DNA of 64,000 nt. It comes from the human T2T-CHM13v2.0 reference genome, Homo sapiens. The position numbers and the translations under genes are program-made. The DNA is taken from the NCBI RefSeq assembly GCF_009914755.1, contig NC_060948.1, one strand, 5' to 3'. This document shows, piece by piece, positions 31,522 to 64,000 of this stretch. Position 1 is the stretch's first letter. Every line of letters starts with the position of its first letter. The notes beneath the pieces are model-generated. The model saw only the letters and a program-made list of their open reading frames with translations. It ran no database searches and was not told where the DNA came from.

Positions 31522-34448
<2,927 letters not shown>

Positions 34449-36449
34449 CTGAGGAGAAAAATCAGCTAACTGTGTTAATTTGAACAGAATTGCCATCTGT
34501 AGACCATTTTTTTAAGTTTTAAATCACTCCTATTTGTGCTAACCAAGTCAGCATTGTTAAATATGACTAGCAAAGACAAACTTCTACCTCTACTGTGTTT
34601 ATGCATTTTTCTTGAAAAAAAGTGTTCCTCTTAATACCTTTTGAAGTTCATAGTTTCTTTTTGTTCTAGCTTAAGTTGCTTTAATCAAAATATTGGGAGG
34701 CATTCCAGCTTTCTCCCCCATTGAAACATTTATATAGCTATTATTTTAGCTCCTTAGAAGTCATTGAAGTAGATAGGCAACAAAAAATACAATGATTTGA
34801 AGATATTAGGTAAATAATGTAAAATTTGGAGATAAGGCACCTGTCTCTAAATTGGAGGGGCTTATCTTCCTAAACTTATAATCTTAGTGAGATATCAAAC
34901 AAATAGTTTAAATAGAAAATTCAAATTTGAGGTTCAGGAAAGAGCTCATACTTTTAAAATTATTTTAGAGTTCCTCAGAAAACTGAGTTGAAGCAATGTT
35001 CATTAATATATACAGAGAGATAAAAATGATGAAGATAACCTGTCTATAGAAGAGGTAAGGAAATATAGATAAAATTAGAAGCATAACTAAGATATTAAGT
35101 TTAGTTGTATTTGAATTAGTCTTTGGAGGATGTGAGCAAATAATTATGGCCTCCTTTATATTCTAAATGTAGCTATGGCAATAGGTGGTAGCTACAAAAA
35201 TAGCTGTGGTTAAGTGCACATTTAATAGATGAGACCAAAAGAGATCCCTCAATTTTCAAGGAAATAAGTGGAAGTACAGCAATATGAAACAACCATTGCT
35301 AATATCGTAATAGGTTTTCTGATAGCCAAGGGAAGGGGGAAACTGATAATCTCAATGTAATGCAGTCTAATACACCAGCACCTAAAACTCATTACTTACC
35401 AACTACTATGCTGTTTCCAAACATCATAATATATTTAACTTAAAATATACTTAATTTAAAATAACTCTATTACAAATATAAGGTACTGTGTGGTAGTAAA
35501 GAAATGTTTTTGTGTTAGGAGAATGTGTCTTAATGTTAGCCCTATTCATCTTCTGCCACGGGAACTTGATCAATCCATTCTACATAACTAGTGTCAGAAT
35601 ACGCATTTAAGATAACTATAATAATCATGTTACATAATCTACATCATAGAGTAATCTATAGGGATACTATGGAAATTGAATCATATATCAAGTATGAAAT
35701 GCCTTTGTAAGCCATAAGGAAAATAATTTCTATGATTTGGTAGATAAAAAACTCACGCATTTCTCAGGAAGAGCTTTCTCTCCCCTCTCCTTCCCTCTAT
35801 TCTTTTCTATTTCCATTCTCTTCTTCCTTTACTTCTCCTACCAAGTTTTTGAGACTTACTCTGAGGCTGTGGCAGAGAGATGTAGTGTGGCCGAATGGAA
35901 TTGGGAGTGGAGGTAAAAGCTGAGGCATTTGTAGAGGTAGAGACTGAAAGGGACATGGAAGCAGAGGCAGTCACGGGCCCTTGGTGGTGCCAGGATGCAT
36001 GGCTAGGCCATGTCACTTCCTGGAGCCAGAAAAGGAAAGGGTGCACTTGGCTGAAGACATAGGGCTTTGTGCAATGCTCCTCAAAGTGACTCAAGATTCC
36101 CACTTGCACCCAAGTGTCTTTTTGCTATAGATGGCACAACAAAGGTGCTCCCAGGTCACTCTGCAAGAAACAAGAGACAAGATATAATCAGTATTTTGAA
36201 GGAGGGCCAGAAGTAACTTTTGGTGTTCAAGATATTCTTTTTCTCCCTGGCATTCACATTCCATGAATTTGTTACCTTACAGCCAGGCTCCCACATAGCT
36301 TTCTTGACCTCCATAAAAAAAGTGAGTTCACTCAGCTTGGGGCCAAATTGGGCACAAGAGCTGACTAGTAGTATGCTCAGTTGCCTTTTTTTTTTTTTTT
36401 TTTTTTTTTTGCAGAATTCCAGGACTTCCTGATGGAAAACAGAGAAGAA

Positions 36450-36772
36450 GCCGGGCGCGGTATCTCACGCCTTGTAATCCCAGCACTTTGGAAGGCTGAG
36501 GCGGGCGGATCACGAGGTCAGGAGATCGAGACCATCCTGACTAACACGGTGAAACCCCGTCTCTACTAAAAATACAAAAAAAATTAGCCGGGCGTGGTGG
36601 CGGGCGCCTGTAGTCCCAGCTACTGGAGAGGCTGAGGCAGGAGAATGGTGTGAACCCGGCAGGTGGAGCTTGTAGTGAGCGGAGGGCGGAGGTTGCGCCA
36701 CCCCACTCACACCTGCACGACAGAGCGACAAAACAAAAACAAAAACAAAAACAACAAAAAAAAAACAAAAAC
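36450..36772 (+). mobile_element. AluY with aberrant 3' end, next to the exon 4 acceptor
   Basis: gatcacgaggtcaggagatcgagaccatcctgactaacacggtg; approximate TSD aaaacagagaagaag / aaaacaaaagaag. Confidence 0.9.
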
Positions 36773-37314
36773 AAAAGAAGTGTTTGTGTTTGTTTTCAAA
36801 TCAAATTTAGCCTAGATTAGAGGAAGAAGTATGGTGAAGAGAAAGACAATTTTTTTATTATTCAAGAGAGGATACTATTCTCTTTCCAAATATGCTTCTC
36901 TTCCATCCCAGTGTCTTCTTCTTTACTCCCCCCTCATAAGGGACCAAATAGGTAGCCAACAGTCATATAGTTGTATAAATTTCTCCTGTTCGAGACTTTC
37001 CTAAGGGCATAGAGGAAGGACCAGGGTTTGAAAATGTAGTGGCTGCTTCAGGAAGATCAACCCAGGTCCTAGAGGTGCCTTCGGACCTAGGTAGGGTATG
37101 ACATGTTCAATGCTGACAGTCTGAGCTTGGGCAGAATCTAGAAGATGATTATGCCCCAGTTGGACCAGGGACAGGGCTCCTGAAATTTTTCTGGGGAACC
37201 AAAATCAGGGAAAATTCTATTATTTCCACATTTCAATTTGAATAAAACCTGGAGGTGAATCAGATGAAGACCAGGTAAGCACTAAAGTACAAATACTACT
37301 TTAGAAACTATTTT

Positions 37315-37586
37315 CGAGGATCATTTGAGACCAGGTGGGCAACATGGTAAGACTTTATTTCTGTGGAAAATAATAAAAAAGTTAGCCAGATGCAGTGATG
37401 CATGCCTGTGGTCCCATGTACTCAGGAGGCAGAGGTGGAAGAATCCCTTATCTTGGTAGTTTGAGGCTACTGTGAATCATGCCACTGCACTCCAGCTTGG
37501 GCAAAAGAGCAAGACCCTGTCTCTATCACTCTCTCTCTGTCTCTCTCTCACACACAGACACACAGACACACATACACACACACACA
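37315..37586 (+). mobile_element. AluJ fragment with a (TC)n(CA)n tail
   Basis: tttgagaccagg...catgccactgcactccagcttgggcaaaagagcaagaccctgtctc, then a microsatellite. Confidence 0.8.
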
Positions 37587-38502
37587 AAGAGAAAGATATT
37601 CATTAACCATATCAATGTTGTGATTGCTCTATAATGATATCTTAATCTTGAAATGAATTATTTAGACTTATGTAAAATTGGCACATCTAACTGTGGTAAT
37701 GATCCACTGTTCATTTAGTATGGAGCCAGCACAGAAATGGGAGAAAGACAGTTGAAACTGGCACATCTAGCTGTGGTAAGGATCCACTGTTCATTTAGTA
37801 TGGAGCCACCATAGAAATGGAGAAAGACAGCTGCACAGTAACTATCCAACAGAATTCACCAATTTCTGACTCCCAGCCGTTGGGAAACATGAGGACATGG
37901 CCAGGGCATAATCCACACTCTGCAGAAGGAATAAACCTGTGGAATAGAGTGAGATTAGTATTACTACTCTCCCATTTCTGAAATCTAATTTTAGGTTTTT
38001 AGAAATATGCTTGGAAATTCAGTATCTTCAATTCTGAGAAAATACATGGAAATATACATCATCCTACAATTTTAGATATACTACAGTTGTTATCTACATA
38101 CTTACCCTTCAAATAATATATATATGTATATATGCAGTTATGATATATATATATATCTTATTATTTATATCCAAGATAATATACTATTATCCAATAGTGT
38201 GTGTATATATTCATATACGTCAAGTGGAATAATAAACTATTTCTAAGAAGTAAGACTATCTTTAAAATACTGTTCTCTGAATAGAATTGTGTTTATAAAA
38301 CATAGCTCATAAATCCTATTTGGCAAAAATAAGATATTCTTCAATATTTAGACATCTCTGCTGATTCATACAATAACCTAAATTTCAGTCTTCCGAACTT
38401 CTGAGAACATAACCTCTGATGTTACAAATTCTGGTTTTAGGGTTCAACAAGAGTCTTCGTAGCAAGTATATTAACTCAAACATATGACTAGAGTAAAGGT
38501 GC

Positions 38503-39910
38503 CTGTGGTTTCATGAGAAATAACAGCTGTCTCGAAGAGCCAGAAAGCCTGGAAACTTTCTTTCCAGATCACAGATAGTTGACACTCAATCAGGGAAACG
38601 TTGAGTTCTGCATGCCTAAGAGGTTGTTGTCCAGGCTTGGGTCCAGATTGAGATCCAGGCATCAGGAGAGGTTGTTTTGTTAAAAGTGTGGCTGGAGCAG
38701 CATGCAAGGATGAAAAAGAAGGAGAAAGAATGGACTCTTCAGTAAATGTTGAGGAAGATATTTTCTGAAGAGAATTAGCAGAAGAGGCTATGGATAGGAC
38801 AATAGAAGAGGAGACCAGAGGAGAGGAGAAAAAAATGGAGCAAGGTGGGAAAATGCAGAATGAAGGGAATGTACAAAAATAAAAGACTGAACAAGAAGGG
38901 CACAGTGTTCACGGAGATTGAAGTGAACAAGAAAGAAAAAGGAGAAAGAAAAAGAGATAAGAGAGGTACATGGGACATCAGGGTTTTCTTTTATCTGGAT
39001 AATTTTTAATTTCCTGCCATAGTGCTGGTAAACAACTCTTCCAGGAAGCCAAATGCTTGTAAGCTGGCTTGGGTGGACAGAATTGATTTTTATCTTGGCT
39101 TTCTGTGGCAGTTATCTCAGTTAACAAAACTATAATATACTAATCTGGGAAAGGCACAGTTTTTACTGGCAAAAAAGGGTACATGTTTGGACAATGAGCC
39201 AAAATGACTGATTAATAGTGTTTCTCCATTAGGCTCAATTTCAGGAGGAGAAAATGATGCAATTATATCAGCCTTATAGTGGGTTCTGGGACTTAGTATT
39301 TCTGTTTCAGGCTGGATGCAGGTTCTCACTTTGCCAGCTTCAAAAACAGCAAAGGATTCAATAATATCAGCTTCAGACTGGATCCAGTGTGTGTCTGCTT
39401 TGGTTACAGGCAGTATCCAAGATATGAGTGTTCTTCCTGTAAGCAAGGTCCATGTTTTACTACTGGAGATAGAACCTTGGGCCAGAAACTTAGTAGGAAG
39501 GTTTCAGACTGCATAAAAGGGTGAATTATGTCAACTTCTGTCTGCATCCAGGGACTGACTATTTGAGATTTTGAATAAGCTCATGATCTGCCTTTATTTA
39601 TTGTAATGTAAAACAAAGATCTGACTACATCAGTTTTCTGCTTGATCCAGGATCTCACTGCTTGGGTTTCAGGTGGGTCCAGGTTTGAAATGTAGCAGCT
39701 CTTTGCTGAGTCCAGGGCCAAAATATACCAACTTCAGTCTGGGGCCAGGGAGAGAGTGGCTGATTTTCAGGATGAATCCAGGGTCTAACTGTATCACATT
39801 GAGTCTGTAAGCAAGATGTGACTGTATCAATTTCACTCATGTTTCAGGGTTTTATTCCTTGGCTTACAGTCCAAGTTTGGAATACTTCAGTTTCAGGTTG
39901 GTTCCAAACT
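38503..39910 (-). pseudogene. PRSSLY-like exon 1 remnant (11-aa Trp repeats, then a Ser/Phe/Leu-rich segment)
   Basis: PWIHPENQPLS/PWPQTEVGIFW/PWTQQRAATFQ/TWTH.ETQAVR/SWIKQKTDVVR and HWIQSEADIIE. Ends ...VISHETT G|gc, in phase with the next exon. Confidence 0.7.
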
Positions 39911-40302
39911 AACATCATCAAATAGGTTAAAGCATAAAAATAACAGGCCAAGAGGAAAAAGGTTTAAATCTCTGAGAAATAAATAAAACTCACAAACCTA
40001 CTGGAAACCAATCTGCATATTGAGGAAAAGTTTCTGAATAAATGTTCATCTTTCCTGTACTAGCTTGTTAACTCATAAATTTGACCTTTTTTGAATTAAA
40101 GAGAGAACTGTGTCCCTATTTTAGTTTGTAACATTGTCTTCCCCTGCAAACACTTCATATAGTATCCATTCACTTCATTTCCACATCAAGATCACAGTTA
40201 GCTTCAAAGGCTGAAGAAGGACACATCATTGGGGTAGTTTGCCTTCACCCATGTCATTCAATCACACATGACCACAGACATCTGGTGAGAGTGGCATCTG
40301 TA

Positions 40303-40488
40303 CTGTGGTTCTTAAAATGGAGTAAGCCTCAGAATCTCCCACAGGGTTTGCTAAAATGCAGACTGCCAGGCCTCACCCTCAGAGGGTTCAGCAGATCTGG
40401 AGCAGGCCCCAAGAATCTGCATTTCTAACAACTTCCCACATGATGGTGATGCTACCGGTCCTGGAGTCATACTAATTTTCAAGAACCA
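40303..40488. mobile_element. MER5A-like hAT DNA transposon fossil
   Basis: gtggttcttaaa...cagaatc...aaaatgcagact...aagaatctgcatttctaacaa...aagaacca. Confidence 0.8.
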
Positions 40489-41482
40489 TTCTATAAATGA
40501 TTTTGGATCACTGCCATCATGTCATCTGTTTTGACAAACCACAGAGCCCTAACTTAACAGCTATTTTAATATACAGACAGCAGGAATTTTACACACATCC
40601 CGATGGCCTGCCAATCACTCAGCACGGGCACATGTTTTGGGTGCAGCCATGCATCGCTGCAGTTAAAGCCAAATGTTACAGAGCAAACTGAATGCTGGCT
40701 GCTCAGTCCTTCAGATCCTCAACTCTTGGCATTTCATATTTCACCACCATCTGGAGCCTTCACTCTACCACACATGATGGGGCACGTGACTTGCTAGGCT
40801 TACAGTTGAGGAAGGGCAGGGTCCTAAGAAATGACAGGACCTGCCCATGCTTGCTTGGCATCTTGCTCTGAGCCTTATTTCCTCTGCATCCCATATCTAG
40901 TTAGGAGCATGGACGCTGGAGAGACCAGGGGCACCATGGTGACACAGGAGTAACTGGTGGAGCTGACCTCACACCAGGTTGTCACCTCGTTCCTTACTTC
41001 CCTCAGGACTTCTAGCCCCTATGCTAACCAGCCCTGGATGCTGTGATTTTCCATCTCCTGCTTCTGACTCCTCCAGCTCTTCTGGGTACTCCATTGCTAA
41101 CACACTTGCAATCAGTTATTTCCCATCCCTGTTCAGATTCAGGCATGCCCCAAACAGCCTTGCTCCCCAATTCACGCATGCTAGGAACCACTGCAGCTTC
41201 AAAGCTGAGTATAAGTGTCCTATGGGCGCATCCAACTTACTCCTAACCTCATCTTCACCTCAAAAAACAGGCAAGGGACTGCCTCAAGGCTGCAGATCTA
41301 GCAGGCACAAAGGTGTGGCAAGCACTGACTGTCTAGAGGATCCCAGTGCCCCACACTCCTCACAAGGTTGTATCCACCTCTGTCTTGCCTTGGCCTGGAG
41401 AGCCCGGTATGGCAGAGGCCCTCACAGCAATGCCAATCCTGTGTTCTTCCCAGGTGTTCAGAAATCAGTTGTCCATATCCAT

Positions 41483-41820
41483 GGCAGGGTGCAGTGGCTC
41501 ACGCCTATAATCCCAGCACTTCGAGAGGCCAAGGCAGGCAGATAACTTGAGGTCAGGAGTTTGAGACCAGCTTGGCCAACATGATGAAACCCTGTCTTTA
41601 TAAAAATACAAAAATTAGCCAGGTGTGGTGGTGGGTGCCTGTAGTCCCAGCTACTCTGGAGGCTGAGGCAGAAGAATCCCTTGAACCTGGGATTGAACCT
41701 GGGAGGCAGAGTTTGCACTAAGCCGAGAATGCACCACTGCTCTTCAGCCTGGGCAACAGAGTGAGACAAGATCTCCAAAAAAAAAAAAAAAAAAAAAAGA
41801 AAAGAAAAAAGAAAAAGAAA
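41483..41820 (+). mobile_element. AluS with a 12-nt internal duplication
   Basis: Full Alu containing ttgaacctggga-ttgaacctggga; long A-rich tail. Confidence 0.92.
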
Positions 41821-41823
41821 TTA

Positions 41824-47940
<6,117 letters not shown>

Positions 47941-48009
47941 AGAAATTACTTTTCAATGTCCAAATAGCTTCTCCCTTGTGTGTACAAGAGACTAGGCCAA
48001 AAAGTCCAT

Positions 48010-48976
48010 TGTGGAGAAAAGAAAGAGAGATCAGACTGTTACTGTGTCTATGTAGAAAGAAGTAGACATAAGAGACTCCATTTTGTTCTGTACTAAGAAA
48101 AATTCTTCTGCCTTGACATGCTGTTAATCTGTAACCCTAGTCCCAACCCTGTGCTTGCAGAGACATGTGCTGTGTTAACTCAAGATTTAATGGATTTAGG
48201 GCTGTGCAGGATGCGCTTTGTTAAAAAAGTGCTTGAAGGCAGTATGCTTGTTAAAAGTCATTGGCATTCTCTAATCTCAAGTAACCAGGGACACAATACA
48301 CTGCGGAAGGCCACAGGGACCTCTCCCTAGGAAAGTCAGGTATTGTCCAAGGCTTCTCCCCATGTGACAGCCTGAGATATGGCCTCATGGGAAGGGAAAG
48401 ACCTGACCATCCCCTAGCCCGACACCTGTAAAGGCTCTGTGCTGAGGAGCGTTAGTAAAAGAGGAAGGCTTCTTTGCAGTTGAGACAAGAGGAAGGCATC
48501 TGTCTCCTGCTCATCCCTTGGAATAAAATGTCTCAGTGTAAAACCTGATTGTATGTTCTGTTTACTGAGGTAGGAGAAAACCACCTTAGTGATGGAGGTG
48601 AGACATGCTGGCAGCAATACTGCTCTTTATTGCACTGAGATGTTTGTGTGTGTGCACATCAAGGCACAGCACATTTCCTCAAACTTATTTATGACACAGA
48701 GACCTTTGTTCACATGTTTTCCTTCTGACCCTGTCCCCACTATTACCCTATTGTCCTGCCAGATCCCCCTTTCCGAGATGGTAGAGACAGTGATCAATAA
48801 ATACTGAGGGAACTCAGAGACCAGTGCCTGTGCGGGTCCTCCTTATGCTGAGCACCGGTCCCCTGGACCCACTTTTCTTTCTTTATACTTTGTCTCTGTC
48901 TCTTATTTCTTTTCTCAGTCTCTCGACCCACCTGACAAGAAACACCCACAGGTTGTGGAGGTGCTAGCCCCCTTCA
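48010..48976 (+). mobile_element. Solo HERV-K(HML-2) LTR5 (older LTR5A/B type)
   Basis: TG...CA termini (tgtggagaaaagaaagagagatcag ... ccccttca), 967 bp, perfect 6-bp TSD GTCCAT at 48004-48009 and 48977-48982, AATAAA at ~48797. Confidence 0.96.
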
Positions 48977-49149
48977 GTCCATGCTTCCATAGTTAGAAAA
49001 CTGCCCTTCAGGTATAAACTAGTGAATCTTAGAAGTAAATTAGCTCCTCCAAAGCCCAGCAGAACATGGTTTGAGAAATTCCCCTGCCCACAGCAATTTG
49101 GTGGCATCATGAGTCAACATTTCTCAAATACATTCTTCAGCACTTAACG

Positions 49150-49270
49150 TGCAATCTTGGACCAGGGAGCTAACCTCTCTGTGCCTCATTTTCCTCATCT
49201 AAAAAACAGAGGCAGTAAGAATATTTACTTAAAAGCCTTACTGTGAAGATTAAGTGAGCTCATGTGCATA
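49150..49270. mobile_element. MIR fragment
   Basis: taacctctctgtgcctcattttcctcatctaaaaaa...ctgtgaagattaagtgag core. Confidence 0.75.
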
Positions 49271-50455
49271 AGTCTGAAGATAGCTGGCAGAGAGAGCCAC
49301 AGGGTCTGGCTCCGATAACGATGCTGCTCTGATTATTACAGAGGCCATAAATTATGTGGCCTCATTTATATCACTTAGAACTGTCAGTTATATGCAAATT
49401 AATGAAAGACAACTCTCCTTCCACCAAATGGCTAGGTACGTGCAAGGTGTTTTTCCCACAGAAAGGGAAGAGGAGGGCCAACCCCTATGCGGGGCTGGGA
49501 AAAGAGGAGAATAAAAGGACTAAGGGAGTTTAGGACCTACCAGGTCAACTCCGTCTCAGAAGAAAGCCACAACTGAGCAACAACCCGAAGGTCAGATTGA
49601 GGAGGGGGATACAACAATTGTCTAAACAAAAGCAGGGCTGCCAACCCCACACTTAGTTCCAGGACTGTCCATTGTTCAACCAAATAGCATTGAAGCCCTG
49701 TATGCTTTTGCTATCTTCTGTGGAAACAGCTTCAAGATGGCTTACGAGCTGTCAAGCCATGTAAGAAATCTGTGGAAAAAGAAAAAGGCCAGGGTGGGGT
49801 TTGTAAACCATCTGTGGCAGAAGTCTTCTAAGCAGCAAACATTTCCACTGTATTCATTAATAATGCCAATCAGAACATCTTTTCTGCATGTTAATTAAAG
49901 AAGGCACACACAGCCATAGAACCTATCTAGCCCTATCAGAATGAATGAGGCTAATTTTTCTCACAGTTTTGAATAATATCCTTGAGTTCGTGAGCTCAAA
50001 TTTCATTGTTAGCCATCACCATTTGATTTCAAGTGTTTATCTTCCTTTTAATGCTGCAGTGTCGGGATGCATTGGTGAGAACTTATCCAGGGTAAAACAC
50101 AGTCATTTAGAGACAGTTTTTAGAAGAAACTATTTAGGTGACAATTTTTTTTTTAATTAAAGGGAAGAGACACAACACACCAGATCTGAGCTTGTCAGAT
50201 GCATTCTAGATGTGTTAATTCTTGGAAGTTCTCATGATGAGGGCACTGTCCAGACAACATTTTAGGTAGCTCTTTTCAAGAGGTGGAATCTGGGGAAGGG
50301 TGGATTTTCCCAAATCTTTTACCACTGGAAATGCTTCCCTGGGCATTGCTCTAGTCAATGGTCCCAAGCTTTGTACAATTTGAGAAGTATACATGAAATG
50401 TATAGCATGATCAAGAACTGTCTTAGGAAATGAGGGTAAAAAGAAATATAGAACA

Positions 50456-50780
50456 GGCCAGGCTCAGTGGCTCATGCCTGTAATCCCAGCAGTTTGGGAG
50501 GCCGAGGCAGGTGGATTACTTGAGTTCAGGAATTTGAGACCAGCCTGGGCAAAACAGTGAAACCCTGTCTCTACTAAAATATAAAAAAATAGCCAGGCAT
50601 GTCCAGGTGTGCCTGTTATTCCAGCTATTTGGGAGCCTGAGGCAGGAGAATTGCTTGAACTGGGTTGGCGGAGGTTGCAGTGAGCAGAGATTGCACCACT
50701 GTACTTCAGCCTGGGTGACAGAGCGAGACTCTGTCTCAAAAAAAAAAAAAGAAAAAGAAAAGAAAAAGGAAAGAAAGAAA
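50456..50780 (+). mobile_element. AluS
   Basis: Full Alu; TSD-like aagaaatatagaaca / aagaaatacagaaca. Confidence 0.93.
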
Positions 50781-51052
50781 TACAGAACAGAGTCCCTGCC
50801 CCTGCAGAATACACTAAGGATAGCACCTTTTGCCCCTTTGTTTGGTGCATGGCTCCTAAAGGTCCAGGTTCACTTTGGTAAGGGATTTGGGGAAAGAAGA
50901 CTGGCTTAGAAGCAAGTGGTTTGGGGCTAGGCTTTACCATGAAAGGTGATGTGACTCTTTCAAGGGCTTGGTCTCTCATCTGTAAAATGGGATGATGGAC
51001 AGACAATGTCTCTTGGTTCCCAGATTCTATGCTATAAACAATGCTCAATCAT

Positions 51053-51478
51053 AACATTATGGACTCAATTGTGTCCTTCCAAAATTCATATGGTAAAGCC
51101 CTAACCCCCAATGTGACTATATTTGGAGACAGAACCTTTAGGAAGGTAATTAAGGTTAAATGAAGTCCTAGTTCTCCTTTAAATTAGTGTGGGATGGGGC
51201 CTTAGTCTAATAGGACTGGTGTCCTTATTATAAGAGGAAGAGAAATCAGAGCCCTCTCTCTCCCTCTCCTGGAGTGTGTAAAGATGAAAAGCCACATGAG
51301 GAAACAGCAGGAATGTGGCTGTCTGCAAGCCAGGAAGAGAGCCCTAGCCGGAAACTGAAGTTGCCAGAACATTGACTATGGACGTCTAGCCTCCAGAACT
51401 GAGAGAAAATAAATGTCTGTTGTTTAAGCCACCCAGTGTGTGGTATTTTGTTATGACAGTCCTAGCAAACTAACACAC
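51053..51478. mobile_element. MaLR LTR (MLT1-type)
   Basis: tatggactcaattgtgtccttccaaaattcatatg...ctagcctccagaactgagagaaaataaatgtctgttgtttaagccaccc...aaactaacaca. Confidence 0.88.
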
Positions 51479-51920
51479 ATACAAAGCACATTTCAATGAC
51501 ATGCTTTTCTAAAGGGACAATTTTCAATAGAACAAATCCATAATAATGTGACCTTTTTTTTTTTTTTTCCACAGAGAGGGAAGTGAGACAAATTCAGAAA
51601 GTCTTCTGAATCATGTTGGAGTTCCTGGAACTGCCAGTATCTAGAAGTCATAAAGAAAAAGACTGACAAATGTGAACATATAACAATTTTTCGCTTTTGT
51701 CTCCCAAAAGACTCCATAAGCAAAAGGTCATCAACATGAGAAAATTATTTGCAACAACAATAACAAAAATAAAGGCCAAGCTTAATATATTTATATATGA
51801 AAAGTTTTACACATAGTTAAAAATACTAAAACACCATTAGAAACAAAGGACTTAAACTAGGAATTAATTATTTCTCTTTCTCTTTCCATGGCCAACAAAC
51901 ATTGAAAAAAAATTGCCATC

Positions 51921-52215
51921 TTTTTTTTTATTTGTTTGTTAGAGATGGGGATCTCACTCTGTTTCTTAGATTGTAGTGCCATGGCACAATAATGGCTCAC
52001 TGCAGCCTCAAACTCCTGGGCTCAAGTGATCACCCCCATACAGACTCCCGAGTAGCTGGGAACACAGGCACATGCCACCACCCCTAGCTAATTTTTTATT
52101 ATTTGTAGAGATGGGGGTCACTATGTTGCTCAGGCTAGTCTTGGACTGCTGGACTCAAGTGATCCTTGGTCTCCCAGTGTGCTGGGATTACAGCCATGAG
52201 CCACTGCTCCAGTCC
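51921..52215 (-). mobile_element. AluJ (antisense)
   Basis: ggctcactgcagcctcaaactcctgggctcaagtgatc. Confidence 0.88.
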
Positions 52216-53049
52216 TCAACTTCTTTTTTATTTAGCAAGTTGACAAATTTTGAAAACAAAATTGTCACTGCTGGTAAAGGTACAGTGATATGGGAAAGTT
52301 TACAGTGCTTAAGGGAATTTTAACTGTACAAACTTTCTAGAAAGCAATTTAACAATCTTGCAGTAGCTTGCCACAAAAAGTCTACCCTCTTTCACCCAGA
52401 AAACTTACCTTTCTTTTCTGTCCTGAGGTAATAACCTCCAATGCTATCAAATATCCATCTACAAGCCTTACTTATAAAATTGCTTAAAAACTTAATGTTC
52501 AACAATCCAAATATTTAACCACAGAAAAACAGTTAAATTTAGAGATTTCTGTACAATTAATACCAGGCTGCCCCTAAAAATATCATGGGAATTTAGTGAT
52601 TCAGAAAAATACTTTTGATATAATATTATGGAGAAAAAAACTATGATATGAAACTGCCATATGAGCTCAATATAGATTTTTATGTTAAAACGGTTTAGAC
52701 AAACCTTAAGGAAATACACAAAATACTAGCAGCAGTTATAAGTGGTGGAATTACACACAATTTGAGTTTTCTTTTATATCCTTTTCTGTGATGTTATTAA
52801 CAAGTTAGAATGGGTGTAACAGAAGTAAATGGACAACACAGATGACAAAGAATTTCCTTTTTTCTCTCCTCTCCAAGGTTCTTGAAGGCATAACTAGAAT
52901 CAAATAGTTTTTTAAAACTATGGGGAGACAATTTTAGTATAATCTTAATGGAAAAACTTTCCTTAGAGGAGTCTAAAAATGTAAGATAGGGCCTCAGAAG
53001 CATGAGTGACATGTTACTGGAGTTCAAGTTTACTCTGAATAAACTTCCA

Positions 53050-53480
53050 GCCGTTCATTATGATACCTGCTGGGAACCTATTATGTACCAAGTACTCTTG
53101 TAAGTCACTAGAGGCCTCACAAGCAGTAAGACAAAGTCCCCACCACCCATTAAGCTTACCTTGCAGTGGAGGAGGAAGAAAGTAACATAATGTCAGATGT
53201 GATAAATGCTATAAAATGCCAAGTGGGCCAAGGGGAGAGTGTGAAGGTGGACACAGTGGTGGTAGCTATTTTTGAAAGATGCATCAGTGTAGGGCTCCCC
53301 AATTTCAGTGAACTAAGCAAGCAAGGGATACGGATCTGAGGTTTGAGAGTTCCAGGAGGAAGGGACAGACAGCCTGACATGCATAGTGAATGAGGGACAG
53401 ACAAGGATCAGGTGAGCAGCAGAATCAGGAAAGAAGGTGATTAAGACTAAACTGAGTATTGGGGAGGTCAGCGACTTAGG
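53050..53480. mobile_element. L2 fragment
   Basis: acctattatgtaccaagtactc...agacaaagtcc...agatgtgataaatgctataaa pattern typical of the L2 3' end. Confidence 0.6.
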
Positions 53481-53489
53481 GCTCTGTTC

Positions 53490-53812
53490 ATCTGACTTGT
53501 TTGGCCAATGGGATATTATCAGGTGTAATGCAAACAGAGGCCTAAAAAGCATGTGTGTGGTTGAGCTTGGCCTCTTTTGACTTTGCTATTATGTTGAGAG
53601 GGCATGCCCCAGCTAGCCAGTTGGTTCTAGAGGGATGAAAGACAAATGGATCAGAGCTGCCCCAGTGGAGCCCAGCTGAGACCAGGTCTGCCTCAACAGA
53701 GCTGCTCCAGCCAACCCCCAAATCTGCCAGAATAAATTGTTACCTTTGTAAGCCAATCAGTTCTGAAGTGGTTTGTTACTCAGCATTATTGGAGCAATAG
53801 CTGATAGACACA
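53490..53812. mobile_element. Old MaLR LTR (MLT1I/J-like)
   Basis: gaataaattgttacctttgtaagccaatcagttctgaagtggtttgttactcagcattatt...gcaatagctgatagacaca terminus. Confidence 0.7.
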
Positions 53813-54626
53813 ATGCTCAACCTAGACCTAAAAAACAAGACCACTGTAATTTGCTTAGCCTGGGTCCTTATTGAGAATAACAGTGTGGCCTAACCAGTTC
53901 AACAAACCATGATTGTAAGAGTAACAAGCACAGGAGCCTTATCCTAATATTATCCGAATGTAAGATAATTCTACATTTCAAGTAAGATAACTATGGGTAA
54001 ACCAATAACATGCTCCAGTTTCTTGTTTACTATACTGACAGTCTGTTATCAAATAGCCTTGGCAGGTTCTAAGTTTGCTTCTCTCATCTGTTTTGCCGAA
54101 AAATTTGTCCCAAGTGCTTATTCCATGGCCTCCTAAAAAGACATATTTCATAGGTGATCAGGGAAAAACAGCTGCTGTACAGCTAAATCACGTCAAAAGT
54201 ATTTTGGGGTTGAAGGCAAGCATGAACCACAATCCAGCTCACTTTTTAACTTCTGAGTAATATTCCAGGAGTCCATCTGGAGCCCCATCACAGTAGGGAT
54301 GCCGTAAGAGACCTTTTTGAGTATAGCCCTCCCAAATCCTGACCTAAGCATGCTTGAGACCAGAAGACACTCAATGAGCCCCTCAGGGTTATATCAAGAT
54401 GGCACACATTTCCTCAAGACTTCTACCAAAATATGTTACATCAAATTTCCAAAGCCTCTACCTACATATATTCTCAGTGGAAAACCTCCAGGCCCTTTAA
54501 ATGTGCCTGCCATGTGCTTTAAGTACTTATGGGCCTAATTCAACACAAATTATATGGTGATGTTTAGCCTGACCATGGTGAGCATGGCAGAACTGAGGTC
54601 CAGAAGAGGGAAGGGGACACTCACAG

Positions 54627-55055
54627 CCCATCCAGACTTCTTCTCTTTCCCCTGACAGGCTTCCTTTCTTTCCCCCTGAGTCACAGGCCTGGGAAGCAGG
54701 TTGTGCAGTCAGCAGGAAAAGCTATGGCTAGCTTGGGGGTATGAAGAAGGAACACACAGAGATCCTTATTTTCCACCCACCTCAACCACTGCCTGCCTCC
54801 CAGCCTCCCCACCTCAGCATAATGCTCCAGTATTCTGAATCCCATCCAGACTTTTTCTCCATTCCCTGCTGAGCTTCCTCTCCTTCCTCCTAAGTCACAG
54901 GCCTGGGAGAGGGGCTGTGTAGTCAGCAGGGAAAGCTACAGCTAGCTTGGTGGTATGAAGGAGGAACACACACGGATCGTTATTCACCACCCACCTCATC
55001 CACTGCCTGCTTCCCAGCCTCCCCACCTCAGCATAATGTGCCAGTATTCTGAATC
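54627..55055 (+). repeat. Two-copy ~214-bp tandem duplication
   Basis: Units start cccatccagactt at 54627 and 54841; both end ccagtattctgaatc. Confidence 0.92.
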
Positions 55056-56669
55056 CAGAGCACTGATTCACCTACTTAACCATGAGGCTGAAGTTCAGAA
55101 TGGCTGTCAAAATCTGGTCACCTAACAGCAAAAAAATCAATGAACTACAGAGAGCAGATAGCTAGGCTTTTAAAGATTCACTTGTTTTGATGGCCTTGTC
55201 ACTGCTTGTCTCCTCATTACCTTCATGGCTCAGCCTCACTGTAATGTGCACTGACTTGGGCATAAATAGGTCTATCTTAGAGTTAATGCTCTGATGTAAA
55301 AAGGGTAAACCACCCTCCATCTATGGAAAACATTCCATTATCACAGCATTTTTTATGAAAGCCAAGATGCTTCCCTACTGTCCACAAAAAGCTATTTGCC
55401 TTCATACTGTATAAATATTTGATGCTGGCCTTTTGGCAAAAGGCCACCTAAATATTCCAAGCTTATGATTTACAAGAAGGATGTGGGAAAGGAGATTTGT
55501 CATAGTATTTCAAGAGGTAAATTCTATGAGGCAACCATTCTTCTCCTGCGGACTCTGAGATACTAAGACTGTCTATCAAGCAAACCTTCAGGCTCAGCCC
55601 TAGGCTGCTGTGCTTCGCCAAAGTCTAGCCTGAATGTGCATGCCATGACAAGCGGTCAATGCATTTGGTCTATTTTTGCAGGGTTAAAAACAAAATATTA
55701 CTGTTGTCCTTTAAACAAACTAGACTGGACTAGATTGACTACGCTGGAATAGCTGGCCTAACAGATGCTCTTGGCTCTCTGAGAGTGCCTTCTCTCCATC
55801 AGAGGCTGCACAGTCCTCTTGGCACCACCTTGATTCCAAGATTGGCACTGGCCAAGTGCATAAGTGCAATTGCACATGTGGTCAATGGCATGTGATCCCA
55901 CGGCAAATATAATCACTGTTCAACCAATTCCAGATAAAGGTGCCATGTTGCTCCACAATCACACTGAAGCTAATTTGCTCTATTTACCAAAGAATAAGCA
56001 AGGCTGCTGCCGTTTCTTGTTTCTTGAACACTCTCTGCTGCTCTAGGCCTGGCTACCGTCCTACATTCTTAGTTTGATGCAATGAGTCATCTAGAAAAGC
56101 TATTACTCCTCTTTAGCTAGAAAAAGATTAGCTTGCAAGTTGCAGTGCCAATTAAATGAACAGATAGGGAAGAAACATTCTGATTCATTGGTTGATGGAT
56201 GTGAGGCACTCTGCCAGGTGCAGTTCAAGGCTTTTCATTGAATCCTCCCCCAAATTCTGTAAGAGTCATCATTCCCTTTTAGTGGATAGACATCTGAGTT
56301 ACATGATTTGTCCATGTTCATATGGAATACAAAGGCCAAATCAGATATGAAATATGATTTGTTTGACACTAAAACTTACCCCCTTTCAACAACAGACATT
56401 TATTGAGCTACTGCTATGATGAGGCAGACCCTGTTTGAGGAACTGGGGGTAGGTGCTAAACAGGCTAAGTTTCTACACTTGCAGAGCTGGTGTTTTCTGA
56501 CCAATGCACCATATTCTCTCTGCCTTGGTGGTTAGGATAAGATTTTAGTCGGGTCACAATGAGACTTAGGACTTCTGTTTGGGGCCACATCTGTGCAGAT
56601 GCCATGCTCTCCTATATAGGGCAGAAAAAAAAAAGAATAAAAATATGATTGTAAATGGCTGACTTATGC

Positions 56670-57152
56670 ATATAGCTGTGTATTTTGACACAATGGGTTA
56701 GCATACAGTGATGAAAGAAAATGGTCTGCAATTACATGTAAAAATGTAGACGAACCCCACAACAACAAGTGTGTGTATAAAGTTTGTATACAGTTCAAAA
56801 CTCATCAATGGTGTTTCAAGTAGGGACTGTGATTACCCCAGGGGGATAGAAACAGTGCAATTACATGTAAAAATGTGGAAGAATCCCACAATGACAAGTG
56901 TATAAAATTTGTATAAAGTTTTGTATAAAGTTCAAAACTCATCCATAGTGTTTCAAGTAGAGACTGTGATTACCCCAGGGGAAGAGAAACAGTGTGGGGC
57001 ATGCAGGGGCTTCTAGGGTTTTGATATGTTCTATTTCTTGATCTATGTGCTGGTGATGTGTGTGCTCACTTTGTGAAAAGCCACTGAGGTATATATCCTT
57101 GTGATCTGTACTATTTTTTACATGTGTGCTAAACTGCAATAAAAGTTTTTTA
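56670..57152 (+). mobile_element. Old L1 3' end (L1ME-like) with a ~130-bp tandem duplication
   Basis: tgcaattacatgtaaaaatgt...gaaacagtg appears twice (56727, 56856); ends ttctatttcttgatct...caataaaagtttttt. Confidence 0.75.
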
Positions 57153-58769
57153 AAGATGTCCCATGGACATATCAGAAAATGCATTTAATGGCATATGTGC
57201 AATTTAGCCCTTACATTATTAAGTGGCTATTCTGAAATAGAAGCCCTGACTATAACTCCTAGGCCAGACATTCCTGCAGAATAGTGGTCCAAGGGAGTGG
57301 CTATCAGAAACACGTGGTAAGGTTTCATTCTCCATCTTTTACCAGTCCCATGCTAAAACCTGCAGGTTCCTGGTGAAACACTCCAATATCAGCTTTTTCC
57401 CTCATCACCACTGGCATTATTGAGCATGATCCAGAACTCTCATTAGTCACCTTCTGTATGCAGGCACTGCAATATTAAGAAACTGCAAAAAGTAGGACCT
57501 GCCTTGGGGGTTCGTTGCAAGTATATCTGTATAAAGTATATTACCCACATATTTAATGTATATATTTTATTTAAAATATGTATATGTGTTTTACATATGT
57601 ATTTTGCAAATATATCATCATAGAGGATATGCTACGTGTCAAAAAAGGTGGTATAAATACCAAGTGTTACTTGGATTTACATGCCGCTGGGGCATCAGAG
57701 AAAGTCTCAAGGAAGGCCTAATCTTTTAAAATGGTGGGAGCAGAGAAACATCCGGGTGCAACGTGTCGCCTTTGTGATGCATCATGGAGAACACATTGCT
57801 TGGAATGTATTCTAGTTGTAATTCTTAATTTATCAAGGTCTTACAACTAACTTCCAGTTTACAGGAAATACAGGCTGGATAAATAAGATCAATGATGCCA
57901 TGAGCATTGACCAGATGAAAACATAATATAGGCCATTCTGCAGAATAAGAGGATAGGTTCCTTTTGAGCAGACAGGTAAAGGGAAAAGGGCTCTTCTAGG
58001 CAAAAACAGAAGTGAGGATACAGTCACCACAAACACTGACTGCTGCTGGAGTGGGTTCTGGTTTGGATGATCAGCTGCAAAGGCCATTTCTGAAACAAAG
58101 AGGTGGAGGACTGCTAGGGTAGGAAAGGACAAGGACAGGTCAAGGGCATAAGGAGCAAGGAGCAGGGATGGGCAGGGGGGTGGGGCAGGGAAGGCAGGGC
58201 AAAGAGAGTAGTTGGGGATGGGAGACAGGACAGAACAAGAGGAATGCAGGGCGAAGCAGGGAAAGACAGATGGTAGCAGTGGCAGCAGCCTCAGTGACCA
58301 GAGACGGCAGCAGTGATTCTGCAGGCCCAGAGGCCTTGTGAGAAATCAGCCTCCTCGCTGAGCCTTCAGGGGCAGACAGCCTCAATCTCACCCAAACTCC
58401 TGGCTCCCACCCAACTCCTCCTCAACAGCCAGCTCAGCTCAGATTCTCTCCTCCTGGTCTTTTCCATCCTCTAGAAATAGAGAACCTAGCCTGCATCTCA
58501 CAGGCTGACATGTTCCTGAGTGCCTGGCTACTCTGCTATGCAGTCCCTGGACTCATTCTTGCTTCCCATTGGGTCCTACCACCTCCCTAGAGTGACCCTG
58601 GAGTCCTCCTCTCCCCACCGGGAGAGCTACCAAGGTCCCGCTGGGAGCCACAACTCCTGCCAGCATAGACATGTCTTTTGTCTTCTATCCCACCCACCTC
58701 GTGGGTTCTTTTGGCTACCTACTCCCTTCTTTCTTCCTGCCATCTCCTTGATCTTACTAGCTGGTAACA

Positions 58770-58885
58770 TTGACAGTGACTTAATGTCTCTGTGCCTCAG
58801 TTTCCACAGCTATAACACAGGCATAACAACAGTACCTACTTCACTGAGGAATTATGAGGATGAAGTCAATGCTAAGTTTGAATTC
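58770..58885. mobile_element. MIR fragment
   Basis: gtgacttaatgtctctgtgcctcagtttcc...ataacaacagtacctacttca. Confidence 0.75.
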
Positions 58886-60479
58886 CTGAGACCAGCACCC
58901 ATACAAACCAACCACTAGGTGTTCATGGTCAGCAATATGCCCCTCCTCTGTGATCTAAGCTTGCCAAAGCCCATGGGCATTGCTCCCCCATCCCAAGACA
59001 CCCAGTCATTCTAAAGTTTAATGAATGACCCAGGGAGAGGAGTCCTAGACACTATGAGCAGGAGCCCAAACTTGAGGACTGTACAAGTGTTTCTACGTCC
59101 TGGGTTGGGAGGCATGGGGAAGGGAGTAATGCCTTGAAAACAGAAGCTCTGGAGTCTGCACTGGGGAATTCAGGCTGAAACATCACCTTGTTTATGGGAC
59201 AAAGTTCTCGTGAGTTTTATGACTCTGGAAAAAATTCAGGAGTATAAATTTATATTTAAGAGTCTTGACTGGTGGCTTTCCAGATGGCAAACAACTTAAA
59301 GATATGCTTCTAGCTCTGCCAGATTTATTTGTAAGGACATTAATTATCTCATTAGAAATAGGTTCCTCTTACAATTAGCTTGCTGTTTTTTTTAATTCTG
59401 GGTAAAGAACATACACATATTTCATCCCTGGCCAATGGACACCTTGGACTTTACAGAGCAGAAATGCCCTAACCCAGTAAGCATTACTCCCAGTCATACT
59501 CTCCCTCCCAACAGACATATAAAGGGTGAAACTGTGTTTAAAATCAGGGTGGTTTTCAATTCATTTTGTTTTGAGAATGTTGCAGCCCTCCCTGACATGA
59601 TACGAACAGCTAATGGTGGAGCTCTAAGATATTGGCTGCATATAGGGAGATGCCTGGGCTCTGTGGAGGACTTCATCATTGTGCTTGCCAGGGGAAAGCA
59701 CATGTTCTGTTTTCATGACAGGAAGAATGAATTTACTGTGGTAAATCCAAAGGAGGCTATGTCAAACACTCAAGTCAAATCTGAAGAAAAAGCTGTCTAA
59801 GTTGTCTACATTTGTGGACTCCAGGTTGAAGAGTGGGGTGACAGGGAGAAGAGGAGTCTAACTCAGCCTTGATTACCAAATCATAATGGTAGAGGACCAG
59901 TAAATGGTTTTGTGAATGTTCCAGGTGTACTTTCTAGGGGGTCTTAGGGTCCCTGATGTGCTCAGGCAGTGGGGAAAAAGAGAAAACCTTCCTTTTGATT
60001 CCATAATTTATCTAATAGCGGAAGAAATTCCAAGTGGCCACCTCTGTACCCACTATCTCCAGCACCTCCCTACACACTTTCAACAATTAATCATCAGTTT
60101 CCTGGGGAGGAATGTAAAACTATGTGTGGCCACAGAGAGCATCTATGGGCACTGAGAGGGGATGAAAAGAGTCACTGTTGCTGCAACCCAAGATGAGCAA
60201 TGGGGTGTCCCCACAGGAAAAAAGGAGCCAAAGCATTCCTTCCTGGTCTCTGCTGACACTGATAAGTCAGGCTGTAGACATCTGTCCCAAGTTGTCCCCA
60301 TGCATGTACCACCACTGGTGTTTTATGATGCATCTCAAACCAGACCATGAAAACCCCTGACTTTGAGGAACTTTGCAGGTACCCATGGAGGGCTTCCTTG
60401 TATAGAGGGAGGTTGCCCTCCTTGCCACTAGGGCACAGAAGTGACCCTACATTAGTTTTACTAAAGATATGTGTATTAT

Positions 60480-60715
60480 AGAACTGCACTGACCAAGTGC
60501 CACTGACCAGAGACACTAGCCACTAGCCACATACGGTTATTTAAACTTAAGTTAATGAAAGTTAAATTAATTTTAAAATTCAATTCCTCAGTAGCAGTAT
60601 CCACATTTCAAGTGCTCAGTAGCCATAGTCAGCTGGTGGCCGCCATACCGGACAACCCAGATACAGAACAAACACCTCCATCATCACAGGCACTTCTATT
60701 GGACAGCCCTGCTCT
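60480..60715. mobile_element. MER3/MER33-like hAT DNA transposon fossil
   Basis: tagccactagccacat...aattcctcagt...ccacatttcaagtgctcagtagcca...ttctattggacagc. Confidence 0.8.
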
Positions 60716-63700
60716 GGATAGCTCTCTGAATGTATTTGTAACAAGCCAATCACTTTCTTGTGTCACTCATGCATTCAACAAATGGTTATGGACCAATACA
60801 CTATACAACGCCTGCTGCTACTATGGTAAGATGTCAATATTAGACAATGGTGAGACTTTCATCCAAAATTAAGACCTGTCTGTGCTGTATCATGTTCTAA
60901 GGCTTTGGATGATTTAAAGTACATTCATTTAGAATTCAGAATGGTCTCTATTCTCAGGATGCTTGCTGGCATTTCAAGGATTGCAAACAATGTAGAATCC
61001 AAACTCTGTTCATGACTTTGCTAATTCTTGAGAGAAAATGGCTCAACAACAACACACAATACTGTTTATGCTCCCTGCCAGGTTTTGCTGGGATTGATAA
61101 ATTTGGTGTTATGTTTCACTTAGGGATCCTATGACTGGCAGCCCTCAGGATATGTACGTGTTTGCACATTGGTCCCATTCCCCAAATTGCCTCTTAGATT
61201 TGACACACCCTGGTGACTCAACTTGCCTTCCCATTAACCTAAAGCCCTTTCTTTGTTTTACACATTTTCCAACTATACATAGACCTTCTGCCTTAGGAGA
61301 GCTGACATTAATAGTGCTATTCCATGCAGCAAACCACTAGAGACAATACATTACTGGGGAGGGGGTACTGGGTGCTGGGAGACCTGGGAACAGTGAGTGT
61401 CTCAGTGGAGCTTACAGAAACCAGTCTGTTCAACTTATTTCTCTGCTGCTAATTTCAAGGTGCTGCCACTGCTACTTCAAACTGTAATAGTGTCTACAAA
61501 CAATTTGCACTTTGGAATGGCACACTTCCAACAGGTAATTAACAAATCCAGGGGACAATCTTTTTAAAAGGCTTTAAAAGCAACAGAGACTGAGGCCACC
61601 ATCAATGATATAGAATCATTCCGCTTTCTCTGTCATTTCAGAAGATACCTGGTTGACTGCTAGAGAGGTTTAGAGACTACAGGCCCTGGGCTTTATGGAA
61701 AGTTCCTCAAGATGTGTTAATTAGAAATAAAATTCAGCATGGTTATTGGCTGCAGTGTTTTCTCAATGAAATAGGCTATGAAGAGGGACTAAGATTTCAA
61801 TAGTTAGGAGCAGAGTTCACAAAGGGCCACCCAAGGACAGTGAATTCCATACCATTCACCATTCCAAGGCAGAACACTGCATTCACCAGCCTGCCTCCTT
61901 TCTGGAAGTGGTCGCTCGTGTGCCCTAACCGGTTGGTGTCCAAGCTCTCACTGTCTGGCCATTTTTGGAGACATGGAGAGGAATGGTGAGAGGGAAGTAT
62001 TGCTGGCCCTTCTGATGGCTATTCGGTTTGTTGAAAAGGGCTGAGATCTACATTTCTGCTGAGATTTGTAAAGGTAGTGGAGAGAGAAGAAGTCAACCAA
62101 AGATAAAAAGCTGCTTCGTCGGGTTTAGTGGAATCTCTCAGGAGCCTGAATAAATGATATGATGAATGCTGAAATCTCTGTGAGGCTGTATTGTTGTCAA
62201 ATAATAAAGCCTCATTCCAAGTAGTAAGGTGAGGCTGCCTTAAAGTAACATGGACCTCAAAGGTTGGGCTTCTAATGGGGGACTTAGGTTTTTAATCTGG
62301 AATATAATGAATACTTGTTATCTGGGATTAATGTGTACAGTTAGGTGGTTGAGAAAAGAACACAGCAGATGGTTCTAGAAATTCATACAAATATGTGTTT
62401 TGGAAACAAAAGCAGAATGTATTTGGGTCAGAGTGGTCTTTTAAAAAGTAAAGGTACAGAGACACATAAAAACAAAAATACTGCTCTAATGTCAGAAATA
62501 TTATATACTCCTGAACTCACTATTTATAAACTGGAATAGTGTTTCCTGGGGCTGAACCCATATTACTTAATCAAGTACATCAAAAATACATCATTGATAT
62601 GTAAAAATAAATATGTTCCTGTAAATGAGAGTTCCTGCCTGGAGTGGCAGGTCAGCCCAAACAGCCAAGAAGGCACTGGGGGTGAGGTGCTGAGCTTTCA
62701 GTTCCTTCATTTATAGCTCAGTTCTTAAGCAATCAATAATCACCACCACCCATCAGCTGAGCCAAGCCTGCCTATGTGCAGCTGGGCATGGGTTAGCAGT
62801 AGCAGCCTCCAGAAGCAAATATCTGGAATTTCAATCTAAGTCTGAAAGTCTATTTTTATGCTCCTCATTTAGTCAAGCAATCAGTTGACCCAGCTTAAAA
62901 AGTCTTGCTTACACAGGCTTGTCAGGAATATGCTTTGGTTTCCAAAAATATCTTTTTAAATCATAAGAAAATCCCCACCTTGTGTGAAACAAGAATTTAA
63001 AGGTCATAAACAATGGTTGACATTAGCAAGAAGGACAAAGCAAATTCATGCTCCCTGCATAAGCACTCTTTGATGCTGTTTCCCAAATTTCAGTACCTCA
63101 CAATGTTTTGTGGTATCCAAGTACTAGTTGACTTTTTCCTTTATTTAAATAAATATATTATTTTTTTTTTTAAAAAAAGAAACTTTCTTTCATGAGTATG
63201 AAGGCAATCCACTACCACTTGCCAAAAACAAGGGGTGATGATGAAGTACATTAACACCAAATATGTTCATCTGTCTAACACCTAAAATTATCTCACATAG
63301 GTCACAAAGTCTTCTCTCAGCCCCATCTGAGTGAGCACCAGCAGAGATCACTAGGTAGCAGCGCTGGGCCATGTTACTTCGTCATCAGCAACACCTGAAT
63401 GAGCAGAAGCCATTTCAGGCTTTCCATCCAACAGAACAATTATGAAAGGAAGGTGCCTATCTTTGGAAGTGGCCACTTGGATTTTAAACACCAACTCTAG
63501 CCTGTTCATTATCCCCATCCAAAGCTGCTTTTCTCAGCCCTCCTCCTTACTCAGAAGCCATCTCCAGCTAGGAGATACTTTCATACCAGAAATTAGGTCT
63601 TGGTGTATAGAGCTCGCAATCACTAGACTAGTTCATGACTGGAAAATACAAACTTTAGAAATGGAGCAACATGTAATGGAGTGAATCCAGCCATAAATTG

Positions 63701-64000
63701 GGGCTGGGGTGGGCAGGAGGTAAACTAGACAGTTGGGTGTTTTCCAGTCCTGGCGGCCAGGGGTTCAAATAAAGCTGCAGCTACCGAGGGCAAGAGGATA
63801 AACAAGGTTTTAGTTAGTTCTTGGGTTTATTTGGTTTCCTTTATAAGCAGACCCTGCAAGCTTTCCTGTAGAAGTAGTTTATTTGGGAAGTGATCCCAGG
63901 AAACAGAGGGAAGGAGTAGGAATGGAAAACACGGAGGAGATGGAGATGATGCCAGTGAATAAGTGCATTGAAGAGCATATTACCAATGGGGCAAGTAGGG

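What the first reader, a model, noticed from the sequence alone, without database searches (positions are those of the whole stretch)
39910..40300. Junction between ancestral-Y sequence and an autosome-derived block cuts through PRSSLY-like exon 1
Seen: the Trp repeats stop at ~39910 with no start codon, signal peptide or promoter recognisable upstream. To the right, the DNA carries MER5A, MIR, L2, MLT and RFTN1 exons. The exon 1 remnant is only ~1.4 kb, whereas PRSSLY exon 1 is recalled as many kb in other species. Inference: a rearrangement joined an RFTN1 intron to the middle of exon 1, decapitating the gene. This may be the event that killed it or a later one. An acceptor-like tttatttatttctcag (minus strand, ~39990-39972) lies at the seam.
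Basis: partly seen in the sequence, partly recalled or inferred. Interest (0 to 1): 0.7.

Follow-up and report, generated by a model that had tools for sequence, protein, structure and literature searches.

The report
Old break in dead Y gene
On the human Y chromosome, one of eleven broken copies of the sperm protease-like gene PRSSLY is cut off mid-exon and abuts DNA copied from chromosome 3, and this seam is most likely an old rearrangement scar in a gene that was probably already dead, so it records Y history but likely has no function.

Summary
The junction is real and can be placed to the base. Ten other Y loci align with the window up to 39906/39907, and all ten continue into the same Trp-rich PRSSLY exon. 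Only this copy stops there, losing about 4.7 kb of the exon. Chr3 RFTN1 sequence starts at 40286 (87%, collinear, at least 100 kb of chr3). The 379 bp in between match nothing else in the genome. They are probably chr3 intron later deleted from chr3, because a chr3 LTR is cut off at this same point. The break did not kill PRSSLY: an in-frame TGA is shared by 8 of 8 uncut sister copies examined and by the published rhesus model, and marmoset PRSSLY is also a pseudogene. The 'exon 1' begins at a splice acceptor in the sisters, so it is likely internal. The acceptor-like motif is 65 nt from the seam and at chance frequency. Most likely this is a secondary deletion or rearrangement within the Y, about 30 My old or younger. 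The original landing edge of the DAZ-bearing chr3 block is not excluded (about 0.2). It is an ordinary scar that I did not find described.

The parts
39906..39907 (.). Breakpoint: last base shared with the 10 sister PRSSLY-like copies
38473..39906 (-). Remnant (about 1.43 kb) of the large Trp-rich PRSSLY exon, with private frameshifts and a TGA at 39846-39844; the 3' boundary is approximate
39907..40285 (.). 379-bp orphan with no match elsewhere in the genome; probably RFTN1-intron sequence later deleted from chr3 (inferred)
39972..39987 (-).
40286..64000 (+). chr3-derived RFTN1 block, starting at C3:16356816; aligned to 57920 here; sampled matches reach Y 7,450,000 = C3:16457691
   Evidence: RefSeq row RFTN1P1
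40303..40490 (+). DNA-transposon relic shared with chr3 (MER5A name recalled)
   Evidence: weak Rfam mir-544/mir-1289 hits
41825..47939 (-). Full-length L1 inserted on the Y, absent at the chr3 site, with a short flanking direct repeat
48010..48976 (+). Solo LTR inserted on the Y, absent at the chr3 site (LTR5-type name recalled)
49650..49769 (-). Last retained RFTN1P1 exon; it is followed by a GT donor, so the seam lies in the parent's next intron
   Evidence: RefSeq row
37676..37919 (-). PRSSLY protease-domain exon with an approximately 79-bp tandem duplication not seen in the sisters aligned; contains TTTY16 exon 1 (37860-37920)
36930..37204 (-). Next PRSSLY protease-domain exon
36030..36160 (-). 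TTTY16 exon 2, behind a canonical acceptor within the PRSSLY unit
   Evidence: RefSeq row
34174..34422 (-). Further trypsin-like exon (TAAHC motif) downstream in the same unit

Best explanation
One of eleven broken PRSSLY copies on the human Y is cut at 39906/39907 and followed, after a 379-bp unmatched spacer, by a chr3 RFTN1 block, and the join is most likely a secondary deletion or rearrangement within the Y that hit an already dead pseudogene. Steps: (1) PRSSLY was inactivated early. A shared TGA is shown in 8 of 8 sisters and seen by eye in rhesus; an earlier simian loss is inferred from marmoset. (2) The chr3p24 block reached the Y in the catarrhine stem. The 0.102 divergence is shown; identity with the DAZ event is inferred from neighbourhood and age. 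(3) The dead PRSSLY unit was amplified into a family about 0.10-0.15 apart (shown). (4) In this copy alone, non-homologous end joining (inferred) removed about 4.7 kb of the large exon, everything upstream of it, and the chr3 DNA left of the seam. (5) Later, chr3 itself probably lost the LTR tail plus adjoining intron, leaving the 379 bp as a Y-only relic (inferred). The seam has no evident function.
For: 10 of 10 sisters are uncut. No stand-alone 5' half of the exon was found in the genome, including near the far side of the chr3 block, among 40 scored candidates. No Y homologue of C3:16347019-16354699 was found. Window-to-nearest-sister K2P without CpG is 0.102-0.107 against chr3-to-Y 0.102 +/- 0.003. 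For Y/autosome rate ratios of 1.3-1.75 this puts the sister split at 0.78-0.92 (+/- 0.06) of the chr3 block's age, so a break private to this copy should be younger than the block's arrival. The window nests inside the family. The TGA is in 8 of 8 sisters. The chr3 LTR's similarity to its best-matching copy ends at LTR position 349, while the Y/chr3 alignment starts at 348; five of the ten copies compared show the family's 30-40 nt tail running on beyond that point.
Against: The dating margin is only about 1.5-4 SE, rests on an assumed rate ratio, and is upset by gene conversion. Conflicting shared disablements point to conversion or homoplasy: the TGA at 39846 is shared with Y5.97 and Y10.24 but not with the tree sister Y22.33, and a 1-bp deletion at 39671 is shared with Y6.18 and Y9.96. 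The window has lost the segment holding the pan-copy TGA, so its former presence here is inferred. Only 1 of 10 LTR copies aligned right up to the cut. The orphan's chr3 origin has no direct match. The far end of the block was not located. No outgroup Y was available.
Confidence: 0.6

Rival explanations
1. The seam is the original left landing edge of the chr3p24 (DAZL-region) transposition: the block inserted into one PRSSLY repeat unit, the displaced 5' half was lost, and the remnant kept exchanging with its sisters for a while.
For: The adjoining chr3 sequence to the left has no Y copy. The sister distances are close to the chr3-Y distance. There are signs of conversion among copies. The block lies in chr3 orientation leading towards DAZL (position recalled).
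Against: The missing 5' exon half is not found elsewhere, as a clean insertion would predict. Rate-corrected dating puts the sister split after the arrival. The original block is recalled as at least 1.1 Mb and heavily deleted and rearranged since (Hughes 2012, not readable), so most surviving edges should be secondary.
Confidence: 0.22
2. The 379 bp is filler from a third source (old Y or X-degenerate DNA, or a captured fragment), so there are two seams, at 39907 and 40286, from one complex or two successive rearrangements.
For: There is no match to chr3 in 30 kb to the left or anywhere in the genome. A homologue at about 70% identity could be missed by the seed search.
Against: It requires the second break to fall within 2 nt of an existing LTR truncation on chr3. 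The sisters do not carry the sequence.
Confidence: 0.15
3. The rearrangement was the event that inactivated primate PRSSLY.
For: It removes most of the large exon and everything upstream in this copy. The majority reading of the remnant is nearly open.
Against: Ten uncut copies are also dead. The in-frame TGA is in 8 of 8 sisters and in rhesus. The marmoset copy is frameshifted, although New World monkeys lack the chr3-derived red amplicon (PMC2322974 passages).
Confidence: 0.03

Closest known systems
[quoted passage not shown] 2022, PMC9178871; read: main text parts 1-3 of 5, supplement 1, part 1 of supplements 2 and 3, part 3 of supplement 9, passages of 5)
   Same: Same gene family, exon layout and decayed state; low-level transcription is reported there.
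   Different: The paper's human model matches the Y 10.24-Mb copy. In the parts read it gives no copy count for human, no truncated copy and no chr3 junction. Fig. S1 itself could not be seen.
DAZ/DAZL chr3p24-to-Y transposition, AZFc red amplicon (Yu et al. 2008, PMC2322974, passages read; Hughes et al. 2012 BioEssays, recalled only)
   Same: chr3 donor with similar divergence (85% over 120 kb there, 87% here), catarrhine age.
   Different: This piece is on Yp, carries RFTN1 exons rather than DAZ, and appears single-copy. A common origin is inferred, not shown.
RFTN1P1 (RefSeq pseudogene)
   Same: It is the right-hand block.
   Different: The annotation covers exons only; the left edge at 40286 (or 39907) and the flanking PRSSLY copy are not annotated.
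TTTY16 (RefSeq lncRNA NR_001552.1)
   Same: Lies in the left-hand unit on the same strand.
   Different: Its exons use acceptors of this truncated PRSSLY copy, which the annotation does not state.

Membership tests
PRSSLY pseudogene | Trypsin-like exons similar to lemur PRSSLY | tested here: met
   By-eye match to supplement 5 lemur sequence; Pfam Trypsin at 34174-34422
PRSSLY pseudogene | Very large Trp-rich exon upstream of the protease exons | tested here: met
   1.43 kb retained; about 4.7 kb more in the Y10.24 sister, beginning with the lemur-like 5' motif
PRSSLY pseudogene | Disrupted reading frame | tested here: met
   Five frameshifting 1-bp or 7-bp indels and stops in the remnant
DAZ-era chr3p24 transposed block | Collinear intron-containing chr3p24 homology at about 85-88% | tested here: met
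DAZ-era chr3p24 transposed block | Present on catarrhine Y, absent from New World monkey Y | not testable with these tools
   No primate genomes are held
DAZ-era chr3p24 transposed block | Same divergence from chr3 as the DAZ amplicon, measured alike | not tested
   Only the published 85% figure was compared
Primary insertion site of a transposition | Both halves of the interrupted target flank the inserted block | tested here: not met
   No free 5' exon half among the matches; later loss remains possible
Primary insertion site of a transposition | Donor homology ends at the seam in all descendant Y chromosomes | tested here: inconclusive
   True for this one human Y over 7.7 kb; other species not testable
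Gene-killing rearrangement | No older disabling mutation shared with uncut copies or outgroups | tested here: not met
   TGA in 8 of 8 sisters and in the rhesus model
Homology-mediated (NAHR) junction | Long shared repeat at the seam | tested here: not met
   The orphan has no above-chance similarity to the sisters' continuation; microhomology at 39906 cannot be read because the donor flank is unknown

The most novel reading that the evidence does not exclude
The seam at 39906/39907 is the surviving original landing edge of the chr3 block that brought DAZ to the Y, inserted into an amplified array of dead PRSSLY copies, and the 379 bp beside it is the only surviving human copy of chr3 sequence since deleted from chr3 itself.
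Probability: 0.18. Interest if true: 0.55.

Novelty: new member of a known kind. Interest (0 to 1): 0.27.

Why it matters
As a secondary scar it matters little: it is a datable marker of Yp rearrangement. The side results are more useful than the seam. PRSSLY survives on this Y as 11 decayed copies with a stop codon shared back to rhesus, TTTY16 is a spliced piece of one of them, and the Y may preserve intron DNA lost from chr3. If the seam were the primary edge, it would show where and into what the DAZ-bearing block first landed, which ape and macaque T2T Y assemblies can test directly.

Tried and rejected
Search for a source of the 379-bp orphan: the genome-wide search found only itself. 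Local alignment against 40 kb of chr3, ten Y loci and the rest of the window gave scores at or barely above shuffles; the three marginal cases were AT-rich noise on inspection. Rfam gave nothing credible on it. The acceptor-like motif as a seam feature was rejected on frequency and distance. Mapping window 46700-64000 by genome search was swamped by L1 and LTR hits, and the first chr3-left search by MaLR hits; both were redone on narrower queries or locally. The first LTR end test used too lax a scoring and was uninformative; it was redone. In one search the second motif hit was used for some sisters, so I rely for the Y-Y distances; the Y6.18 row is unreliable beyond about 37290 (internal deletion) and was trimmed there for the tree. 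An apparent shared frameshift in segment A was an alignment artefact. The far end of the chr3 block was not found: the probe at Y 7.49 Mb is an interspersed retroviral-type repeat, and the probes at 7.468, 7.52 and 7.56 Mb were only compared locally, with no informative hit. A protein search with the remnant found one record, P0001, which matches the AZFc sister copies. Hughes 2012 (BioEssays), a second paper tried by a recalled PMC id and Bhowmick 2007 were not held.

Full report
What is there. The window is chrY:7,316,001-7,380,000 of the assembly. Left of 39906 lies a minus-strand PRSSLY pseudogene. Its exons at about 37676-37919 and 36930-37204 match by eye the mouse lemur protease-domain sequence printed in supplement 5 of Hughes et al. 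2022 (PMC9178871). A further exon at 34174-34422 hits Pfam Trypsin (E 4e-9; 1 of 6 stretches scanned had a hit). That paper reports PRSSLY as a pseudogene in human, chimpanzee, gorilla, orangutan, rhesus and marmoset (main text; supplement 3).

The left break. A genome search with 38000-42000 found ten other Y loci at 86-89%, all ending at query 1907-1908, which is window 39906-39907. In the 8 of 10 printed, the 50 nt before the break are nearly identical and the sisters then continue together while the window does not. A search with the continuation from the 10.24-Mb copy returned the same ten loci and no free-standing 5' half (40 of 9846 candidates scored). In that sister about 4.7 kb more of the exon, not counting two repeat insertions, lies upstream. 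It begins behind a pyrimidine tract and AG, with the same 5' motif as the lemur cDNA. So the window copy kept about a quarter of a large exon that is probably internal. The paper's human model matches the 10.24-Mb copy exactly at the motif tested.

The right block. Chr3 homology starts at 40286 (C3:16356816) and runs collinearly at about 87% to at least 57920. It is interrupted by a full-length L1 (41825-47939) and a solo LTR (48010-48976) that chr3 lacks. Sampled further stretches match chr3 at Y 7.431 and 7.445-7.450 Mb, reaching C3:16457691, so the block spans at least 100 kb of chr3. Its far end was not found. Divergence from chr3 is 0.102 +/- 0.003 (K2P, CpG excluded, 8615 sites). That fits the chr3-derived DAZ amplicon (120 kb, 85%, present in apes and Old World monkeys only; PMC2322974 passages). 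That both came in one event is inferred; I recall Hughes 2012 giving at least 1.1 Mb and about 38 My, but could not read it. The 7.7 kb of chr3 left of the adjoining MaLR element has no Y copy among 40 scored candidates.

The spacer. Bases 39907-40285 match only themselves genome-wide and show no credible local alignment to 40 kb of chr3, the sisters or the window. On chr3, the base where the Y homology starts is also where a MaLR-type LTR is cut short. The best family copy aligns to LTR position 349 against a join at 348, and five of ten copies show a 30-40 nt tail beyond that point which chr3 lacks; the others aligned too poorly to say. The simplest reading is a deletion on chr3 after the copying, with the Y keeping part of the lost DNA. 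This is inference (about 0.75-0.8); third-source filler is the alternative.

Did the break kill the gene? No. An in-frame TGA in the part of the exon lost here is present in 8 of 8 sister copies examined (2 of the 10, near-identical AZFc copies, were not fetched there). By eye it is also at the same codon of the rhesus model (supplement 9). The window nests inside this family (IQ-TREE, 7 rows; sister to the 22.33-Mb copy, support 92/92). Marmoset PRSSLY is frameshifted too; whether through the same mutations is untested. Against a tidy picture, the majority reading of the retained 1.4 kb is almost open, and the disablements the window shares with sisters conflict with the tree, which points to conversion or homoplasy.

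Primary or secondary join? The window differs from its nearest sisters by 0.102-0.107. With the Y evolving 1.3-1.75 times faster than autosomes (assumed range), the sisters parted at 0.78-0.92 of the chr3 block's age. A break private to this copy should therefore postdate the arrival, and no second half of the target flanks the block. This favours a later deletion or rearrangement within the Y by end joining (0.6). Gene conversion could have kept the remnant young, so the original landing edge remains possible (about 0.2). Only other primate Y assemblies can decide.

Novelty. PRSSLY pseudogenes, RFTN1P1 and the chr3-to-Y transposition are known. Nine full-text searches turned up no description of this seam, of the eleven-copy count or of TTTY16 as PRSSLY-derived. 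Most hits were seen as listings only. Figures, cut sequence runs in the supplements and the unavailable Hughes 2012 paper may hold some of it. The finding is a real, precisely placed but ordinary rearrangement scar in dead DNA, with a modest chance of marking the DAZ block's landing site.

Noticed in passing
G000:C24 5.97, 6.18, 9.96, 10.15, 10.24, 22.33, 22.79, 23.47, 25.30, 26.92 Mb: Ten further PRSSLY-like units on this Y (86-89% to the window), plus a copy of the 3' part at 8.551-8.557 Mb. I found no copy count for human in the parts of PMC9178871 read.
   Followed up: partly
window 36030-37920: TTTY16's two exons use splice acceptors of this truncated PRSSLY copy. Exon 1 starts one base before a protease exon and ends at an internal GT donor, so the cDNA may be a partial spliced pseudogene transcript whose promoter is unknown, since the copy's own 5' end is gone.
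   Followed up: partly
L011:9470-9818 (C3:16356469-16356817): A MaLR-type LTR on chr3 lacks its last 30-40 nt exactly where the Y homology begins, which suggests a chr3-side deletion; whether it is fixed or polymorphic in people is unknown.
   Followed up: partly
window 37676-37833: Approximately 79-bp tandem duplication inside a protease exon, not seen in the sisters aligned.
   Followed up: partly
window 26530-32750: The region between TSPY12P and the 3' PRSSLY exons is 82-86% similar to the TSPY array repeat unit at Y 8.9-9.86 Mb, so the array unit and the PRSSLY unit may share an ancestral layout.
   Followed up: no
L008-L010:1448-2328 (AZFc copies): A 296-aa database protein (P0001) matches the AZFc copies at 99% and 88% in two frames, which suggests a transcript of those PRSSLY remnants exists in public data.
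   Followed up: no
window 41825-48976: A full-length L1 (minus strand, pointing towards the PRSSLY remnant) and a solo LTR were inserted on the Y after the chr3 block arrived.
   Followed up: partly
L049:7128-7214 (Y 7,447,127-7,447,213): About 8.5 kb of chr3 (16,446,392-16,454,862) is missing from the Y block.
   Followed up: no
L020, L054, L018, L019 (5' end of the large exon): The large exon starts at an acceptor-like site (AG intact in two of four copies) and opens with what looks like the C-terminal end of a further degenerate trypsin-like domain, so published 'exon 1' is probably internal.
   Followed up: partly
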